A stretch of 64,000 nucleotides of DNA, taken from the NCBI GenBank assembly GCA_016296065.1, contig JAEDKA010000003.1, forward strand, positions 5,093 through 69,092, in the 5' to 3' direction. Source of the DNA: Kiritimatiellia bacterium. GTDB lineage: Bacteria; Verrucomicrobiota; Kiritimatiellia; RFP12; UBA1067. Below the pieces are notes generated by a model. It was not told the DNA's origin and ran no database searches. It saw only the letters and a program-made list of their open reading frames with translations. Positions 17,900-28,207 of the stretch are shown piece after piece; positions within the stretch are counted from its first letter, which is position 1, and the number at the start of each line of letters is the position of its first letter. The translations under genes and the position numbers were made by a program.

Positions 17900-20182
17900 C
17901 TAGTATTGCGGATCGGTTCGAACGCCCACGCGGTCTATGACGACCCCTGGATCGACAGCCGTGATCGTGCATGCCTTCGCCCCAGACGGAATTGGCACCT
18001 CAACGCGTATGAAGTTGTCCTGCACGGCCACTGCGCGGACAGAATCCTTCTCGCCGATGTTGGAATCGCTGCGCGGCACCTCCACGTACTTCGCCTCGCC
18101 GCCGTCGAAAGACACTTTCACGCCGAGCCTGAGCCCCGGCCAAAGCGCGAAGTCAGGAAGGAACTGAAGTACAATAGTCCTTTTTTCGACAGGATTAACA
18201 GAATTTACATGATTAAGAGTTGGGGATTCGAGTTGGAGATTGGAATTTTCATTTGCTCCCAATCCTGTCAATCTTGTAAATCCTGTCAAAGAGTATTTTA
18301 CCACTGCGCCATCGCCGACGCCTGGCTTGACAGGCAAAAGCGCGAGGGCGTTGCCGCTCGTGCCGAGGCCCACGACGTTCACCCATTCGCCGCCCTTCGC
18401 GCCGCGCTCGCGCGAGGCAGGCTCGAGCCACGTCGGCTCCGGAACGTCCGCACGGTACGCCGTGGCGACATAGTCGTTCCTGCTCTCGCCGCGGCGATCC
18501 TTCTGCGCCGGATCGTCCGGCTCGTTCCACGGCCACTGCATCTGCGAGCTCCAGCGGTTGTGCGCCGTCGGCTGGTACATCCCGGGCCTCTCGTCGATGG
18601 TGTCGATCCAGAAGCCGGACCACTTTCCGCCGTCAAGCGCGTCCCAGCGCGCATAAAGCGGATCCAGCACCGAATGCGCGTACGCCTTGTCGCGTCCTTC
18701 CAGATGGATTATACCGGCGTAGGCGAGGAAGCGCGTCTGGAAGCCGACGAGGCGGAAGTAGTCGTCAATATGACTGGGGGAAGCGGCGTCTCGCCGCTTC
18801 TGGGAAGAGGAGATATCATTTTTTTGATGAAGCGGCGGGACGCCGCTTCCCCCAGTCAGCTGTCGCTCTTCTTCCCCAGTCAGCAGTTGCTCTTCTTGAT
18901 GAAGCGGCGGGACGCCGCTTCTCCCAGTCAGCTGCCGCTCAATTTCAATGTCCTCGTTCAGCAGGGCATGGTATCGCCTCAGCAGCGACGATTTTACGCT
19001 CTCAGGCAGAGCGCGAGACCACTGGACGCACATGTGCTCGGGCTTGCGGTTGAATCCGAGATTAAAATACTCGTTCAAGTGCTGGACAATGCGGTCAGAT
19101 AGTTTTAAGACAGGATTGACAGGATTATCAGGATTGTTTTCTGAATCCTGTAAATCTTGTAAATCCTGTCCAAAAAAACTCTCCCTCGCCCACATTCTCA
19201 ACGCATCAGCCTGAGGATCAGTCTTTGCCTTCCAGCTCTCGGGGTCTGCGGCGAACTTTCCGAAGGCGTCGAGAAGTATCTCCGCCTGGAATACGTCGCC
19301 CGCATTCACCATCCAGACGTCGCGGACGCCGTTCTCCCAGCACTTCGCGACAAGCTCGTACCACATGAAGGCCGGCGGAGTGGTGCAAAGGTGGATATAT
19401 CCGTGGGGACGGCCCCAGTACGAGAGGTGCCAGTAGATGCCGCCGCCATAGCCCTCGCACTGCGGACCGCCAAGTCGGCGCACGTAGCCGAAGTTGTCGT
19501 TCACCCATAAGATCGTCGCATCCTCCAGAACCTTGAGCCCCGCGTTGAAGATCGGCAGGACCTCCTTGTACGGACAGAACAGCTTCGGCGCACCATCCGG
19601 CAGCATCGCGCACTGCGCGGCGAAGACCTCCTCGAGGATCTTAACCTTTTCCTCCGTCGTCTTTCCGTCCGGCATTCGCCCGTCGTGGATACCGCGCATG
19701 CCGATCGTCCACAAAACTCCCTTATCTCCGTTTCCCGTTCCCCTTCTCACTCCCTCGCGCCAGTAATCCACGAGGAAATCGCGATTCGACACCCAGCTCC
19801 ACTTCTTCTTGTCCGCTTTCGGCAAATAGCAGTTGTTGCGCAGCATCGGCTCGCAGTGGCTTGTGCCCACCGTGATGCCCCAGTGTCTCGCGAGTTCGAT
19901 ATTTTCGGGCCTCGCCGAAAACTCGTAGCCCCCCTCGTGCATCGCAGGCCATATCAGGTTGAGTCCGTTCGCCTTCATGAGCGCGAACACCTCCGCGTAT
20001 GCGTTGGTGCCGATCTGCTCCTGAGCGCCGAAGTGACGGACCGCCCACGGCCGCAGGCCCCAGTCCTCGTCGTTGACGAAGATGCCGCGGTATTTGACGC
20101 CCCGAGGGGAATCCGGAGGCTGCGCAAACAACGACTGCTGCAGACAGCAGACGGCGAACAACAGCGAACATGCGATTTTCAT
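17900..20182 (-). CDS. GH115-like glycoside hydrolase (alpha-glucuronidase family) carrying three in-frame repeat-element insertions
   Basis: N-terminal YRGIFVNDEDWGLRPWA is the GH115 hallmark. The ORF is intact over 760 aa despite low-complexity stretches encoded by palindromic repeats. Confidence 0.65.
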   Translation of the reverse strand: MKIACSLLFAVCCLQQSLFAQPPDSPRGVKYRGIFVNDEDWGLRPWAVRHFGAQEQIGTNAYAEVFALMKANGLNLIWPAMHEGGYEFSARPENIELARHWGITVGTSHCEPMLRNNCYLPKADKKKWSWVSNRDFLVDYWREGVRRGTGNGDKGVLWTIGMRGIHDGRMPDGKTTEEKVKILEEVFAAQCAMLPDGAPKLFCPYKEVLPIFNAGLKVLEDATILWVNDNFGYVRRLGGPQCEGYGGGIYWHLSYWGRPHGYIHLCTTPPAFMWYELVAKCWENGVRDVWMVNAGDVFQAEILLDAFGKFAADPESWKAKTDPQADALRMWARESFFGQDLQDLQDSENNPDNPVNPVLKLSDRIVQHLNEYFNLGFNRKPEHMCVQWSRALPESVKSSLLRRYHALLNEDIEIERQLTGRSGVPPLHQEEQLLTGEEERQLTGGSGVPPLHQKNDISSSQKRRDAASPSHIDDYFRLVGFQTRFLAYAGIIHLEGRDKAYAHSVLDPLYARWDALDGGKWSGFWIDTIDERPGMYQPTAHNRWSSQMQWPWNEPDDPAQKDRRGESRNDYVATAYRADVPEPTWLEPASRERGAKGGEWVNVVGLGTSGNALALLPVKPGVGDGAVVKYSLTGFTRLTGLGANENSNLQLESPTLNHVNSVNPVEKRTIVLQFLPDFALWPGLRLGVKVSFDGGEAKYVEVPRSDSNIGEKDSVRAVAVQDNFIRVEVPIPSGAKACTITAVDPGVVIDRVGVRTDPQY
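18188..18287. repeat. palindromic 9-mer-arm element (100 bp) inside GH115
   Basis: Left arm is GACAGGATTAACAGAATTTACATGATT and right arm AATCCTGTCAATCTTGTAAATCCTGTC, around a ~46-nt centre. The arms resemble the 53600-54426 elements. Confidence 0.75.
18772..18932. repeat. cluster of three GC-hairpin units GAAGCGGCG-NNN-CGCCGCTTC + CCCCAGTCAGC inside GH115
   Basis: Units lie at 18772-18800 (inverted orientation), 18829-18860 and 18901-18932. The same unit occurs at 26511-26542 in hemW. Confidence 0.8.
19109..19170. repeat. palindromic 9-mer-arm element (62 bp) inside GH115
   Basis: Sequence is GACAGGATTGACAGGATTATCAGGATT-gttttctg-AATCCTGTAAATCTTGTAAATCCTGTC. Confidence 0.8.
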
Positions 20183-25675: not shown

Positions 25676-25703
25676 ACTCTTGAACCTTTGAACTTTTGAA
25701 CCT
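25672..25703 (+). repeat. 4 x 8-bp tandem TTGAACYY
   Basis: TTGAAC occurs at 25672, 25680, 25688 and 25696. Copy 1 contains the metK TGA, and copy 4 is the hemW TTG start. Confidence 0.85.
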
Positions 25704-26832
25704 CTACGTCCACTTTCCGTTCTGCAGGCGCAAGTGCTCGTACTGTGCCCTCTACTCGCGCGTCGGCTCAACGGCCGACGCGCGACGTCAATACATAGAG
25801 TCGATTAGGGGCGCATTAGGGTCTCATAGCGTCGCATCTCACTACGAGTCTTGCGACACCATATACTTCGGCGGCGGCTCGCCCGCACTCTGCGATCTCG
25901 CGCCTCTGCGCGATGCCCTTCACGCCCTATTCGACCCTATCTCCACCGAATTCACAGTGGAGCTGCATCCGCTCGATGTCACTCCCGGAAAGCTAGACGA
26001 ACTGAAATCCATCGGAGTCAACCGCATCTCGATGGGCGTGCAGTCGCTCGACGATGCTACGTTGCGCACTATGGGACGCGGCTACACTGCGGACGACGCA
26101 GCGCGTGCATTCGAACTCGTGAAGTCCCGCTTCGACAACGCCGGAATCGACCTGATTCTCGGCTACCCCGGCGACCCAACGACGACGAACGCCGAAGCCC
26201 TTCTCGCTCCTCTTGCCGACTGGGGTCTCCGCCACTGCTCGGTCTACTCGCTCCAGAACGAACGCGGACTCAAGAACATCCCGGACGACGACACTGTTCT
26301 GGACGGCATAAGGTCTGCCTCGCGCTTTCTCAAGTCCATCGGACTCTCTCGCTACGAAATCTCCAACTACGCCGCAACTGGCTTCGAATGCCGCCACAAC
26401 CTGGCCGTCTGGCGCGGCGAGGACTACATTGGACTTGGAGACGGCGCATATGGCCGCCTCGGTCTCATCCGTACGCGAAACTGGTGGGGACAGTCCCCGA
26501 TATTTTCAACGAAGCGGCGAGACGCCGCTTCCCCCAGTCAGCACCCACCCAAAACAGGGGGACTGTCCCCGGCGTTTGGCCAAAAAACAGGGGGACTGTC
26601 CCCGGCGTTTGAGACGGTAAGTGAAGAAAACGACGCGAAAGAGCGCACAATCTTTCGTTTGCGCACCATAGAGGGTTTAGACGCGGCGAAGCACCCGGAA
26701 TGGATACCGGCTCTTGAGCGCTTTGTCGAAGATGGTCTTCTAAGGCGCAGAAACGACACAGACCATCCGGTCTACGTGCTTACCGAGCGCGGGACGGAGG
26801 TCTGCGACGCGATTCTCGAAGAGATAATCTAG
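25696..26832 (+). CDS. hemW: HemW/HemN-family radical SAM protein with an in-frame repeat insertion
   Basis: (TTG)NLYVHFPFCRRKCSYCALYS has the CxxxCxxC radical-SAM motif, and a HemN_C-like tail is present. Residues NWWGQSPIFSTKRRDAASPSQHPPKTGGLSPAFGQKTGGLSPAF are encoded by hairpin repeats. Confidence 0.75.
   Translation: MNLYVHFPFCRRKCSYCALYSRVGSTADARRQYIESIRGALGSHSVASHYESCDTIYFGGGSPALCDLAPLRDALHALFDPISTEFTVELHPLDVTPGKLDELKSIGVNRISMGVQSLDDATLRTMGRGYTADDAARAFELVKSRFDNAGIDLILGYPGDPTTTNAEALLAPLADWGLRHCSVYSLQNERGLKNIPDDDTVLDGIRSASRFLKSIGLSRYEISNYAATGFECRHNLAVWRGEDYIGLGDGAYGRLGLIRTRNWWGQSPIFSTKRRDAASPSQHPPKTGGLSPAFGQKTGGLSPAFETVSEENDAKERTIFRLRTIEGLDAAKHPEWIPALERFVEDGLLRRRNDTDHPVYVLTERGTEVCDAILEEII
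26486..26611. repeat. composite of GC hairpin repeats inside hemW
   Basis: GGGGACAGTCCCC at 26486-26498. GAAGCGGCGAGACGCCGCTTCCCCCAGTCAGC at 26511-26542. A two-copy direct repeat of AAAACAGGGGGACTGTCCCCGGCGTTTG at 26551-26579 and 26583-26611. Confidence 0.85.
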
Positions 26833-26842
26833 CGAACTGCGG

Positions 26843-28207
26843 CTACTTGCCTATGTTGAGCACCTTGAAGCCGAGCTTGCGTAGCGCATACGCATCGAGG
26901 CAGTTGCGCGTATCGAACACAAGGGCGGGCTTGCGCATCGACTTGTATATCTTCTCCCAGTCGAGCTCCGGATACTCCTTCCAGTCCGTCATGAGGAGAA
27001 CCGCATCCGCGTCCTTCGCCGCCTTGTAGGGATTCTTCTCCCAGACAATTCCATCCAGGTCGGCGAGATCGCGCTTTCCGTTCTCGATCGCCTTGGGATC
27101 GCTGATCGTAAGCCTCACGTGCTCTGCGTGGAGGAGTCGTGCCACGTTGCCCGCCGGCGTCTCGCGCGTATCGCCGGTATCAGCCTTGAAGGCGAAGCCC
27201 AACATGGCAATCTTCTTGTTCGCGAGAGTGTTGAACATCTCCTTGAAGAGACGCGACACGATGCGCTCCTGCTGGTGCTCGTTCATCTTGATGACCAGAG
27301 ACCAGTATTCGGCCGCCGTATGGAGTCCGAATGACTCGCAGAGATACACGAGGTTCAGCACGTCCTTCTTAAAGCAGCTCCCGCCGAAGCCCGGTCCGGC
27401 CTTGAGGAATTTCGGCCCGATCCTGCGGTCCGCTCCCATGACGCGCGCCACTTCGTCGACGTCAGCTCCCGTCGCCTCGCAGAGTCCAGCAAGGGCGTTC
27501 ACAGAGCTCACGCGCTGCGCGAGCATTGCATTGGCCGCAAGTTTGGAGAGTTCCGCAGACCACACATTGGTCGTCAGTATCTTGTAGCGCGGCACCCACT
27601 TGCCGTCCTTACCGGCATAGATGTCGCATATCTCCTTTACAGCGGAGAATCCGGCCGCAGTCGAGGGGCCGCCGATAAGGACGCGGTCCGGCTCGAAGAG
27701 GTCCTTTATGGCCGTTCCCTCGGCGAGGAACTCTGGGTTCGAGAGCACGGTGAACGTGTGCTTCGCGCTGTCGTTCAGGATCGCCTCCATCGCCGCAGCG
27801 GTGCGCACGGGCAACGTCGACTTCTCGACGACGATCTTGTCGCCATCGGCGTACTCCTTGATCTCTCGCGCCGTCGCCTCCCAGTACTGAAGGTCGCTCG
27901 CGCGCCCGGCGCCGCGTCCGAACATCTTGGTAGGCGTGTTGACTCCCACGAAGACGATGTCGCAGGCCTTGACGGCCTTGCGGATGTCGGTGGTAAAGAA
28001 GAGGTTCTTGCCGCGTACTTCCCTCACAACCTCCTCAAGACCTGGCTCGTAGATCGGAAGCGCAAAGTCCTTGGAATTCCACGCCGCTATGCGCTTCGCG
28101 TTTATGTCGCACACGAAGACCTTGCGGTCGGGGTTCATCTTCGCGATGACGGCCATTGTCGGACCGCCTATGTATCCTGCACCGATGCAGACTATGTTCT
28201 TGTTCAT
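26843..28207 (-). CDS. ugd: UDP-glucose 6-dehydrogenase
   Basis: NIVCIGAGYIGGPTMAV Rossmann fold and GFGGSCFKKD active-site Cys motif. 454 aa. Confidence 0.9.
   Translation of the reverse strand: MNKNIVCIGAGYIGGPTMAVIAKMNPDRKVFVCDINAKRIAAWNSKDFALPIYEPGLEEVVREVRGKNLFFTTDIRKAVKACDIVFVGVNTPTKMFGRGAGRASDLQYWEATAREIKEYADGDKIVVEKSTLPVRTAAAMEAILNDSAKHTFTVLSNPEFLAEGTAIKDLFEPDRVLIGGPSTAAGFSAVKEICDIYAGKDGKWVPRYKILTTNVWSAELSKLAANAMLAQRVSSVNALAGLCEATGADVDEVARVMGADRRIGPKFLKAGPGFGGSCFKKDVLNLVYLCESFGLHTAAEYWSLVIKMNEHQQERIVSRLFKEMFNTLANKKIAMLGFAFKADTGDTRETPAGNVARLLHAEHVRLTISDPKAIENGKRDLADLDGIVWEKNPYKAAKDADAVLLMTDWKEYPELDWEKIYKSMRKPALVFDTRNCLDAYALRKLGFKVLNIGK

What the first reader, a model, noticed from the sequence alone, without database searches (positions are those of the whole stretch)
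26483..26612. The same GC-hairpin element plus tandem GGGGAC-TGTCCCC hairpins inserted in frame in hemW
Within the HemW-type radical SAM gene, about 130 bp consists only of hairpin repeats. These are GGGGACAGTCCCC (26486-26498) and GAAGCGGCGAGACGCCGCTTCCCCCAGTCAGC (26511-26542, the GH115 unit). There are also two direct copies of AAAACAGGGGGACTGTCCCCGGCGTTTG (26551-26579 and 26583-26611). The reading frame is kept, giving NWWGQSPIFSTKRRDAASPSQHPPKTGGLSPAFGQKTGGLSPAF. The block sits in the linker between the radical-SAM barrel and the HemN_C domain. The peptide KRRDAASPS is encoded in both hemW and GH115. A housekeeping gene carrying such an insert argues that translation through these repeats is tolerated, or even selected.
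Basis: partly seen in the sequence, partly recalled or inferred. Interest (0 to 1): 0.65.

Follow-up and report, generated by a model that had tools for sequence, protein, structure and literature searches.

The report
Translated REP-type repeats inside hemW
A cluster of small mobile DNA hairpins (REP-type repeats, each family sitting beside its own transposase-like gene elsewhere in the genome) lies in frame in the flexible linker of the heme-chaperone gene hemW of a rumen Kiritimatiellae bacterium, where it is read as a floppy 35-residue loop; this kind of thing has been described before in other bacteria.

Summary
Window 26486-26611 holds three copies of the palindrome GGGGACWGTCCCC (family A) and one copy of GAAGCGGCGAGACGCCGCTTCCCCCAGTCA (family B), all in frame in hemW.

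- **Genome-wide families.** A has 91 exact sites and B about 70 copies.
- **Link to transposases.** B units flank a RAYT (HUH tyrosine transposase) gene at G000:C1 and in two other Kiritimatiellae MAGs, and form REPIN-like inverted doublets. A units flank a multi-copy RAYT-like gene in six congeners.
- **Variable block.** Near-identical hemW alleles from other assemblies carry 1, 2, 4, 3+B or 5+B units. Unit periods are 21, 33 and 72 nt. Most congeners have none.
- **Gene still works.** dN/dS is 0.12 on both sides of the insert. AlphaFold2 gives pLDDT below 50 only for residues 260-304.
- **DNA-level conservation.** B units at orthologous sites of two species are 209/210 identical, against 92% for their flanks.

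Best reading: REP/REPIN-type elements tolerated in a permissive inter-domain loop. I found no evidence that the peptide itself is selected. Intragenic translated REPs (Opitutus terrae, Rickettsia RPEs) are already published, so this is a new member of a known kind.

The parts
25696..26832 (+). hemW (HemW/HemN-like radical SAM heme chaperone), 378 aa, TTG start
   Evidence: ORF. Pfam Radical_SAM covers residues 4-160. TIGR00539 HemW scores 171.9 bits over residues 1-261, below the 205.4 cut-off. The AlphaFold2 model matches HemN 1OLT at E 7.5e-17, TM 0.71. dN/dS against G013 is 0.12.
26486..26498 (+). family A palindrome, unit 1 (GGGGACAGTCCCC, centre A), read as W-G-Q-S-P. It is the only unit present in the minimal alleles P0007/P0008.
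26499..26542 (+). family B REP unit with its 5' extension: gatattttcaac + GAAGCGGCGAGACGCCGCTTCCCCCAGTCA + gc. Read as IFSTKRRDAASPSQH.
   Evidence: The stretch from the A unit before B to the first A unit after it, B included (85 nt), is identical in the sister species G013. B is absent from alleles P0005-P0008.
26551..26578 (+). 28-nt repeat, copy 1 (AAAACAG-GGGGACTGTCCCC-GGCGTTTG). A unit 2 lies at 26558-26570 (centre T), read as GGLSP.
26584..26611 (+). 28-nt repeat, copy 2, 33 nt after copy 1. A unit 3 lies at 26591-26603.
26613..26829 (+). C-terminal HemN_C-like (winged-helix-like) domain downstream of the insert, still in frame and under purifying selection
   Evidence: Weak Pfam HemN_C hit, E 0.025. 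Confident AlphaFold2 helices 310-377. dN/dS 0.23.
18771..18930 (-). three family B units (18771-18800 on the minus strand, 18829-18858 and 18901-18930 on the plus strand) in frame in the GH115 ORF. The first two form an inverted REPIN-like doublet.
26843..28207 (-). convergent UDP-glucose dehydrogenase gene, whose stop lies 10 nt from the hemW stop. This is context for the terminator-like idea.

Best explanation
The 130-bp block is a small cluster of REP-type palindromic repeats that has colonised the inter-domain linker of hemW. It is translated as an extra, disordered Gly/Pro/Ser-rich loop of about 35 residues.

**Two families are involved**
- Family B (a 9-bp stem GAAGCGGCG/CGCCGCTTC plus the tail CCCCAGTCA) is the REP/REPIN of a RAYT, an HUH tyrosine transposase encoded in the same genome.
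- Family A (GGGGACWGTCCCC) forms the repeat arrays on both sides of a multi-copy, RAYT-like gene.

**Inferred history**
- An A unit, or an inverted A doublet, came first.
- B then landed in the spacer between A units. REP clusters are known to attract further REPs.
- Since then the number of units has gone up and down, by recombination or slippage between the perfect 13-bp palindromes.

**Why the gene survives**
- The units have no stop codon in any of 6 frames for A and in 5 of 6 frames for B.
- All unit periods in the gene are multiples of three (21, 33, 72 nt).
- The site is a floppy linker.

**Shown and inferred**
- Shown: the anatomy, the family membership of the units, their link to transposase genes, the allelic series, purifying selection on both flanks, predicted disorder, and DNA-level conservation of B.
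- Inferred: that the RAYT-type enzymes actually moved the units (single-strand 'peel and paste' as in IS200/IS605), and that the extra loop is functionally neutral.
For: **1. Dispersed families**
- A has 91 exact sites in G000, against 0 for the reversed control. B has 70-72 copies.

**2. B and its RAYT**
- G000:C1:138-803 (-) encodes a protein of about 222 aa with the motif VMPNHVH. Its only NCBIfam hit is REP_Tyr_transpos, at 58 bits.
- B units lie on both sides of it, at C1:10, 67 | gene | 901, 958, 1015, 1160.
- Its 75%-identical homolog in L089, and another homolog in L101, are flanked by B units in the same way.
- There are 11 inverted B doublets with interiors of 33-35 nt.

**3. A and its RAYT-like gene**
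- The RAYT-like gene G000:C104:34723-35856 scores 41.9 bits on Pfam Y1_Tnp (cut-off 23) and carries the HUH motif VMDNHLH.
- It has six A units upstream and one downstream. Partial copies on C68, C61, C11 and C73 show the same layout.
- A sites flank its close homologs in 6 of 6 genomes. They flank distant homologs in 0-1 of 8.

**4. Insertion polymorphism**
- 11 congeners have no insert.
- Alleles less than 5% apart in protein sequence carry A1, A2, A4, A3+B or A5+B.

**5. Gene function retained**
- dN/dS is 0.12 at dS 0.40, and is low on both sides of the insert.

**6. Predicted disorder**
- pLDDT is below 50 only for residues 260-304.

**7. Other genes carry units in frame**
- These include HydF, HrpB, ApbE, a histidine kinase, an AMP-binding enzyme and GH115, with Pfam domains on both sides in HydF and HrpB.

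**8. Gain or loss still visible**
- A 95-nt block of two B units is present at G013:C110 and absent at the orthologous G000:C13:15318.

**9. Published precedent**
- Intragenic REPs that encode 20-30 residues have been described, with the most GTAG-type cases in Opitutus terrae (PMC3733652). Rickettsia palindromic elements are read in frame (PMC10969869).
Against: - No transposition was observed. No target motif or target-site duplication could be defined.
- The RAYT at C1 is below the curated cut-offs: NCBIfam 58 against 80 bits, Pfam 21.1 against 23.
- The A-linked gene is present in at least 3 copies, and its HUH domain is split by about 125 residues. It may be an IS-like element with A arrays as its ends, rather than a classical RAYT.
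- The minimal allele (one A unit) is only one residue longer than the palindrome-free linker of other lineages. NWMGE...AFE in G014 and G001 aligns with NWWGQSP-AFE. The first A unit may therefore have arisen by replacement or conversion, not by simple insertion.
- Linker types are scattered over the HemW tree. Recombination between lineages, not repeated insertion, may explain part of the pattern.
- B units are more conserved than coding flanks. A purely neutral passenger would not predict that.
Confidence: 0.8

Rival explanations
1. The units are kept in hemW because they do a job as DNA or RNA. One version: they act as terminators or attenuators for the convergent ugd transcript, which has only 10 nt of intergenic space. 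Other versions: they serve as mRNA-stabilising hairpins, or as binding sites for the RAYT-like protein. This adds to the mobile-repeat reading and need not replace it.
For: - B units at 7 orthologous sites of G000 and G013 are 209/210 identical, against 92.4% for flanks that are mostly coding. Fisher p = 3e-6. The locus-specific loop base A or G is kept.
- In hemW, 85 nt that include B are identical between the two species, where flank identity is 91%.
- A units 2 and 3 followed by a T-run score as terminator-like on the minus strand, facing ugd.
- Among intragenic exact A sites with a T-run, 8 are antisense to the host gene and 1 is sense.
- The insert RNA folds at -65.7 kcal/mol, z = -4.0.
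Against: - Close relatives with the same hemW-ugd arrangement have a single A unit without a T-run, or no palindrome at all.
- Only 23 of 91 A sites have a T-run.
- The stems are short (5-6 bp).
- No expression data are available.
Confidence: 0.15
2. The first palindrome did not arrive by insertion. It arose in place from the native linker codons (N-W-M-G-E...) by templated conversion or mutation towards the genomic consensus. Only the later units (the 33-nt repeats and B) are true additions. Alternatively, linker alleles are exchanged between lineages by homologous recombination.
For: - The one-unit allele (NWWGQSPAFETVSEEND) is the same length, give or take one residue, as NWMGEDLAAFEQVSEESD of G014. 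That genome has no A sites at all.
- G001 has ATGGGCGAGCCCC where its sister G017 has the perfect TGGGGACAGTCCCC.
- Linker classes (GTKGGY..., NWWGQ[ST]P..., GILQNSVNGE...) are scattered across the HemW tree.
Against: - No mechanism is known that would convert about 15 nt to a dispersed consensus without flanking homology.
- The later units clearly differ by whole-unit insertions and deletions.
- An old insertion followed by decay explains the degenerate copies (WGQTP, GGPTP) equally well.
Confidence: 0.12
3. The Gly/Pro/Ser-rich peptide repeats are selected at the protein level, for example as a longer flexible tether between the radical-SAM and C-terminal domains or as an interaction motif. 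Under this reading the DNA palindromes are incidental.
For: - The frame is kept in every allele.
- Several independent lineages carry WGQSP-type peptides at this same site: G000/G013, G001/G017 and G002.
Against: - The same DNA units occur about 70% of the time outside ORFs. Inside ORFs they are read in different frames and orientations: GTVP, G[QL]SP and GD[SC]P for A; KRRDAASPS, TGGSGVSPL, DWGKRR and EAARRRFPQS for B.
- The palindromes stay perfect while the spacer peptides differ: AFGQKT, VFAPKI, SNSPKT.
- Linker length ranges from 18 to 71 residues among near-identical proteins.
Confidence: 0.04
4. The block is an assembly or binning artefact, or it marks a decaying pseudogene.
For: - The genome is a MAG of 109 contigs, and repeats break contigs elsewhere in it.
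Against: - The same or closely related insert alleles occur in independent assemblies from other samples.
- The ORF is intact, with the CX3CX2C motif and dN/dS of 0.12 on both sides of the insert.
Confidence: 0.01

Closest known systems
REP/REPIN-RAYT systems (E. coli REP with TnpA_REP; Pseudomonas fluorescens SBW25 REPINs; PMC3116915, PMC3337134, PMC5581495)
   Same: - Short GC-rich palindromes with a conserved tail, in tens of copies.
- Inverted doublets.
- Units on both sides of an HUH tyrosine transposase gene.
- Vertical persistence at orthologous sites, with high sequence conservation.
   Different: - About 30% of repeat blocks here lie inside reading frames and are translated, whereas classical REPs are extragenic.
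- The A-linked gene is multi-copy and its HUH domain is interrupted.
- The A unit is a perfect 13-bp palindrome arranged in irregular tandem arrays.
- Neither transposase reaches the NCBIfam RAYT cut-off, and among the enzymes scanned only the one encoded at C1 also misses the Pfam cut-off.
Intragenic GTAG/CGTC REPs (Di Nocera et al. 2013, PMC3733652), most numerous in Opitutus terrae
   Same: - REP singles, dimers and groups inside known genes, encoding 20-30 extra residues.
- Read through in frame, in a PVC-group bacterium.
- Linked to RAYTs for the GTAG type.
   Different: - The units here carry no GTAG tag.
- Two unrelated families are nested in one site.
- An allelic series shows rapid change in unit number.
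Rickettsia palindromic elements (RPE; summarised in PMC10969869)
   Same: - Palindromic repeats inserted in frame into unrelated housekeeping genes and translated as extra peptide segments at permissive sites.
   Different: - RPEs are about 100-150 bp and AT-rich, occur in reduced intracellular genomes, and have no known transposase.
- Here the units are 13-44 bp and GC-rich, and they sit beside transposase-type genes.
- There is no sequence similarity.
BIMEs (bacterial interspersed mosaic elements, clusters of REPs of different types in E. coli). This comparison rests on my own knowledge.
   Same: - A mosaic of different REP types in alternating orientation, with variable copy number between strains.
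   Different: - BIMEs are intergenic. This cluster lies in a coding sequence, and its periods are constrained to multiples of three.

Membership tests
REP/REPIN-RAYT system (family B unit) | Short palindrome with a conserved tail, repeated tens to hundreds of times in one genome | tested here: met
   70-72 copies in G000 and 39 in G013. The reversed control gives 0.
REP/REPIN-RAYT system (family B unit) | Units flank the gene of an HUH tyrosine transposase (RAYT) on both sides | tested here: met
   G000:C1 has B at 10 and 67 | RAYT 138-803 | B at 901, 958, 1015 and 1160. The layout is the same in L089 and L101.
REP/REPIN-RAYT system (family B unit) | Inverted doublets (REPINs) are a common arrangement | tested here: met
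   11 inverted pairs have interiors of 33-35 nt.
REP/REPIN-RAYT system (family B unit) | The transposase reaches the curated family threshold (NCBIfam NF047646 REP_Tyr_transpos, 80 bits) | tested here: not met
   The C1 protein scores 58.1 bits as its only hit, and 21.1 on Pfam Y1_Tnp against a cut-off of 23. The paralog on C70 scores 70.5 bits. The HUH motif is present.
REP/REPIN-RAYT system (family B unit) | Units are extragenic | tested here: not met
   At least 16 of 72 units lie in ORFs with coding-like flanks, including HydF, HrpB, ApbE, GH115 and hemW.
REP/REPIN-RAYT system (family B unit) | The RAYT cleaves and joins its REP as single-stranded DNA | not testable with these tools
   This needs a biochemical assay.
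REP/RAYT or IS200/IS605-like element (family A unit) | Units flank a Y1 (HUH) transposase gene | tested here: met
   C104 has 6 units upstream and 1 downstream. The same is seen in G013, G037, G001, G017 and G031. Pfam Y1_Tnp scores 41.9 bits against a cut-off of 23.
REP/RAYT or IS200/IS605-like element (family A unit) | The RAYT is typically a single-copy, domesticated gene (PMC5581495) | tested here: not met
   G000 has at least three N-termini at 97-100% identity (C104, C68, C61), plus C-terminal fragments on C11 and C73. This behaviour is IS-like.
REP/RAYT or IS200/IS605-like element (family A unit) | Contiguous HUH/Tyr catalytic domain at the family threshold | tested here: inconclusive
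   NF047646 scores 47 bits (cut-off 80) in two stretches, residues ~5-68 and 196-265. These are separated by about 125 residues that hold an A unit.
Rickettsia palindromic elements (RPE) | Member of one of the RPE sequence families of Rickettsia | tested here: not met
   The exact B 25-mer is found only in rumen and gut Kiritimatiellae MAGs. A is restricted to one genus. The resemblance is in behaviour only.
HemW (TIGR00539) for the host gene | Curated equivalog score, CX3CX2C cluster motif, and HemN-like two-domain fold | tested here: inconclusive
   HemW is the best family hit, but at 171.9 bits against a 205.4 cut-off, and it matches only residues 1-261. The motif CRRKCSYC is present. The fold matches HemN 1OLT at TM 0.71 over both domains.
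Intein or other self-removing insert | Hint/splicing domain or nuclease domain within the insert | tested here: not met
   The insert is 35-42 residues long, and Pfam finds only Radical_SAM in the protein.

The most novel reading that the evidence does not exclude
In this Kiritimatiellae lineage, REP/REPIN elements may not be mere passengers in genes. They would be kept by selection at the DNA level even inside reading frames. There they would act as built-in length-variation modules for protein linkers, changing only by whole codons. They might also act as intragenic terminators for tightly packed convergent genes such as hemW and ugd. The A family would then mark a previously undescribed IS-like branch of HUH transposases whose ends are arrays of a 13-bp perfect palindrome and whose own catalytic domain has been invaded by its repeat.
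Probability: 0.15. Interest if true: 0.7.

Novelty: new member of a known kind. Interest (0 to 1): 0.42.

Why it matters
**Annotation**
- It explains an odd, low-complexity stretch in a conserved gene without invoking a pseudogene or an assembly error. It warns annotators of rumen Kiritimatiellae that many proteins carry translated repeat DNA.
- The insert depresses family scores. HemW falls below its NCBIfam cut-off.

**Biology of REPs**
- It extends the REP/REPIN-RAYT picture to an uncultured PVC lineage in which roughly a third of repeat blocks sit inside genes.
- It offers a clean natural series of alleles (1 to 6 units) for asking how fast such clusters change.
- The B units are more conserved than the coding DNA around them. 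This bears on the open question of whether REPINs are parasites or useful residents.

Tried and rejected
- **Mis-oriented loci.** The first ortholog alignment used minus-strand loci in the wrong orientation. It was redone correctly.
- **Cargo gene between B units.** I looked between inverted B units in G000. Apart from four composite pairings within contig C1 (403-962 nt between units, no nuclease ORF seen), only short doublets and their nested variants exist, with interiors of 33-226 nt and no nuclease ORF.
- **~340-nt repeat.** About 15 B units head a repeat of roughly 340 nt. It has no consistent long ORF and no Rfam match at E <= 0.1. I left it as a side observation.
- **Intein or self-splicing idea.** Rejected on size and on the absence of any domain.
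- **Presence of any Y1_Tnp gene as a predictor.** It does not predict A copy number across the genus. Genomes with no A sites also have distant homologs. Only the close homologs (at least 43% identity) are flanked by A.
- **Sequencing runs.** No read-level or RNA evidence could be obtained.
- **Spread to other phyla.** A scan of genome contigs for the exact B 25-mer found it only in Kiritimatiellae-type MAGs. I found no sign of spread across phyla for this unit.
- **Insertion target.** No conserved target motif or target duplication could be defined, either from the filled/empty pair or from flanks.
Full report
**Observation.** The window is G000:C73:5093-69092. The ORF 25696..26832 (+) encodes a 378-aa protein. 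It has a Radical_SAM domain at residues 4-160. Its best NCBIfam hit is HemW, TIGR00539, but only over residues 1-261 and below the cut-off.

- GGGGACAGTCCCC at 26486-26498.
- The 32-nt unit GAAGCGGCGAGACGCCGCTTCCCCCAGTCAGC at 26511-26542.
- Two exact copies of AAAACAGGGGGACTGTCCCCGGCGTTTG at 26551-26578 and 26584-26611.

The frame is kept and the peptide is as quoted. Shuffles expect 0.01 and 0.07 matches for the two cores, against 8 and 7 strand-matches seen in the window.

**The units belong to genome-wide families.**
- I call GGGGACWGTCCCC family A. It has 91 exact sites in the 3.7-Mb MAG. These often form tandem arrays with periods of 21-44 nt.
- Family B (GAAGCGGCG-R-GACGCCGCTTCCCCCAGTCA) has about 70 copies. 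They occur as solo units, as inverted doublets with 33-35 nt between the matched 25-nt cores (about 88 nt over the two 30-nt units), as tandem 45-, 48- and 51-nt repeats inside ORFs, and at the head of a ~340-nt repeat.
- Across 45 relatives, A is confined to this genus and is patchy, from 0 to 91 sites.
- Among those same genomes, B occurs only in G000 (70), its sister G013 (39) and once in G014.
- A scan of all species-representative genomes found the exact B 25-mer only in rumen and gut Kiritimatiellae-type MAGs, some of them labelled Lentisphaerae or Verrucomicrobia.

**Both families sit beside HUH tyrosine transposase genes.**

Family B:
- L089 and L101 are two other MAGs. In each, a 226-aa RAYT-type ORF is bracketed by B units.
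- Its 75%-identical homolog lies in G000 at C1:138-803 (-). B units sit at C1:10 and 67 on one side, and at 901, 958, 1015 and 1160 on the other.
- Its only NCBIfam hit is REP_Tyr_transpos, at 58 bits against a cut-off of 80. It carries VMPNHVH.
- A 51%-identical paralog at C70 is flanked by arrays of a sister REP with the same hairpin core, GCGGCGGGACGCCGC.

Family A:
- The 378-aa ORF at C104:34723-35856 passes Pfam Y1_Tnp, at 41.9 bits against a cut-off of 23. It has VMDNHLH.
- It matches the RAYT model in two pieces, separated by about 125 residues that themselves contain an A unit.
- Six A units lie upstream and one lies downstream.
- At least three copies exist in G000, and contigs break in them.
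- A sites flank its close homologs in G013, G037, G001, G017 and G031. They do not flank the distant homologs in genomes that lack A.

**The insert is lineage-specific and hypervariable.**
- The distance between the conserved anchors GEDY and ERxxF is 40-49 residues in 11 congeners, with no palindromes. It is 58 residues, with an unrelated helix, in other families of the order. It is 80 residues here.
- The sister G013 (91% identity) has the same insert, but with two leading A units and three trailing ones.
- Metagenome homologs at 80-93% identity give an allelic series, confirmed at the DNA level for three of them. It runs: one A unit (P0007, P0008); two (P0006, +33 nt); four (P0005, +99 nt); A+B+2A (window, P0002, P0003; +105 nt); 2A+B+3A (P0004, G013; +159 nt).
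- All periods are 21, 33 or 72 nt, so the frame cannot be lost when the unit number changes.
- The first unit has centre A. All later units have centre T, so they are inverted relative to the first, as in a REPIN doublet.
- On a tree built without the linker, these alleles form one clade (support 100/100) nested among forms with a palindrome-free 17-residue linker. Tips less than 5% apart differ in unit number.
- Two other lineages, G001/G017 and G002, carry their own WGQSP units at the same site. G017 has further A units at another site of the protein, and both it and G001 read WGQSP at a third.

**The gene is alive and the insert is a loop.**
- dN/dS between the window and G013 is 0.12 at dS 0.40. 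It is 0.11 upstream and 0.23 downstream of the insert. Reading therefore continues in frame into a constrained C-terminal domain.
- AlphaFold2, run on a 108-sequence alignment, gives a mean pLDDT of 79.8. The only stretch below 50 is residues 260-304.
- The model matches HemN 1OLT over both domains, at E 7.5e-17 and TM 0.71.
- The C-terminal piece gives only a weak HemN_C hit.

**The phenomenon is general in this genome.**
- I used a crude codon-usage model. It places 47 of 152 A/B blocks inside ORFs with coding-like flanks on both sides.
- Some single one-mismatch A sites among these may be chance matches.
- Fourteen blocks with several units or with B are clear cases. Six were checked with Pfam, and five of them are recognisable genes: a histidine kinase, an AMP-binding enzyme, HydF, HrpB and ApbE. 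In HydF and HrpB there are Pfam domains on both sides of the insert.
- The units are read in several frames and in both orientations. A has no stop codon in any of its six frames, and B has none in five of six.

**Age and conservation.**
- At least 9 of 20 B loci of G013 are shared at orthologous positions with G000, sometimes with a different copy number.
- One 95-nt block of two B units is present in G013 and cleanly absent in G000.
- At seven orthologous sites the 30-nt B unit is 209/210 identical between the species. The 160-nt flanks are 92.4% identical (Fisher p = 3e-6). The locus-specific loop base is retained.
- In hemW, 85 nt that include B are identical. Given 91% flank identity, the chance of that is about 4e-4 (0.911 to the power 85; my arithmetic).
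- So B is old and is conserved as DNA. Published work reports that REPINs are persistent and vertically inherited (PMC5581495, PMC3116915). A purely neutral passenger would not predict this conservation.

**Side test on function.**
- The insert RNA folds at -65.7 kcal/mol, z = -4.0.
- A units followed by a T-run look like small terminators. In hemW, unit 1 is terminator-like on the sense strand. Units 2 and 3 are terminator-like on the antisense strand, facing the convergent ugd gene, whose stop is 10 nt from that of hemW.
- Among intragenic A sites with a T-run, 8 are antisense and 1 is sense.
- This is suggestive only. Close relatives manage without these units.

**Comparison with what is known.**
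- The elements work like REPs/REPINs with their RAYTs (PMC3116915, PMC3337134, PMC5581495).
- The in-frame life style matches the intragenic REPs of Di Nocera et al. (PMC3733652). Those authors found the largest number of intragenic GTAG REPs in Opitutus terrae, another PVC bacterium, and noted inserts of 20-30 residues. It also matches Rickettsia RPEs (PMC10969869).
- Membership in the RAYT family by curated thresholds is not met for either enzyme. The classical features 'extragenic' and 'single-copy RAYT' are not met either.
- The finding is therefore a new member of a known kind, with some unusual traits. Two families are nested in one linker. There is a fine allelic series. One IS-like RAYT relative has a split domain.

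**Limits.**
- No insertion target could be defined.
- The origin of the very first A unit remains open. It may be an insertion, a replacement of native NWMGE codons, or an exchange of linker alleles by recombination.

**Earlier scan notes.** A note on the GH115 gene of this genome gave the same RPE-like reading. I re-derived the in-frame B units of GH115. I found that the 'nuclease' beside B is a RAYT-type gene.

Noticed in passing
G000:C12:69960-72515, C61:30523-31270, C55:178-511, C75:14691-14953 (outside the window): A ~340-nt repeat, sometimes in tandem. It starts with a B unit, followed by a conserved stem (GCTCGCC...GCGAGC), a 15-codon ORF (MNSSGGCEARGGCAA) and a terminator-like hairpin. 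It has no Rfam match and no consistent long ORF.
   Followed up: partly
HemW homologs P0009-P0101: Related HemW proteins carry other translated repeats at four further sites:
- (T/N)RPYPTLSDP tandem decapeptides and GSIRVNQ repeats near residues 40-85.
- GERGTGNGE-type inserts near residue 165.
- GEREEGRGK repeats in the same linker.
- THTPLVGAHLRGARGHLGEMPLPS before the last helix.
The protein seems to be a recurrent sink for several repeat families.
   Followed up: partly
G000:C104:34723-35856 (L033 1501-2634): The RAYT-like gene linked to family A has its own HUH/Tyr domain split by about 125 residues. That stretch contains an A unit read as GDSPSP. The 98%-identical copy in G013 has the same unit, so the element appears to have been invaded by its own repeat.
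   Followed up: partly
G000:C70:10150-11425 and C34:1-800: Two further RAYT paralogs of 208-209 aa, each bracketed by arrays of its own REP type. One is GACGCGGCGGGACGCCGCATCTCCTTGGTTCAT, the other GGTGCACCTCCTTG... The first begins with GACG (CGTC on the other strand). This may bear on the published statement that CGTC REPs lack a dedicated transposase (PMC3733652).
   Followed up: no
whole genome G000: Several other abundant GC-rich palindromes:
- CGTCGCGGAGCGACG, 74 copies.
- CGCGGC-RNAT-GCGCCGCG, about 45-50 copies.
- GTACCTCGCGAGGTAC, 36 copies.
- A block of overlapping 14-mers all counted 58 times (GTCGCCCGTCACACGACGGGC), which may be a CRISPR repeat or another REP.
   Followed up: no
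window 26833-26842: hemW and the convergent UDP-glucose dehydrogenase gene are separated by only 10 nt. The same layout is seen in L047-L050. Any terminators for the two genes must therefore lie inside the neighbouring coding sequences.
   Followed up: partly
G000:C8:54300-55400 (L025): A histidine-kinase ORF carries two separate clusters of A units read as GTVP. Five lie in the N-terminal, probably periplasmic, part. Three lie just before the HATPase_c domain.
   Followed up: partly
G000:C43:119783-120154: Eight B units (one inverted unit plus seven at a 48-nt period) are read as a 16-residue tandem repeat (EKRRDGASPSQEADVV)n. They lie near the N-terminus of a 754-aa multi-pass membrane protein. 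The G013 ortholog has only four units.
   Followed up: partly
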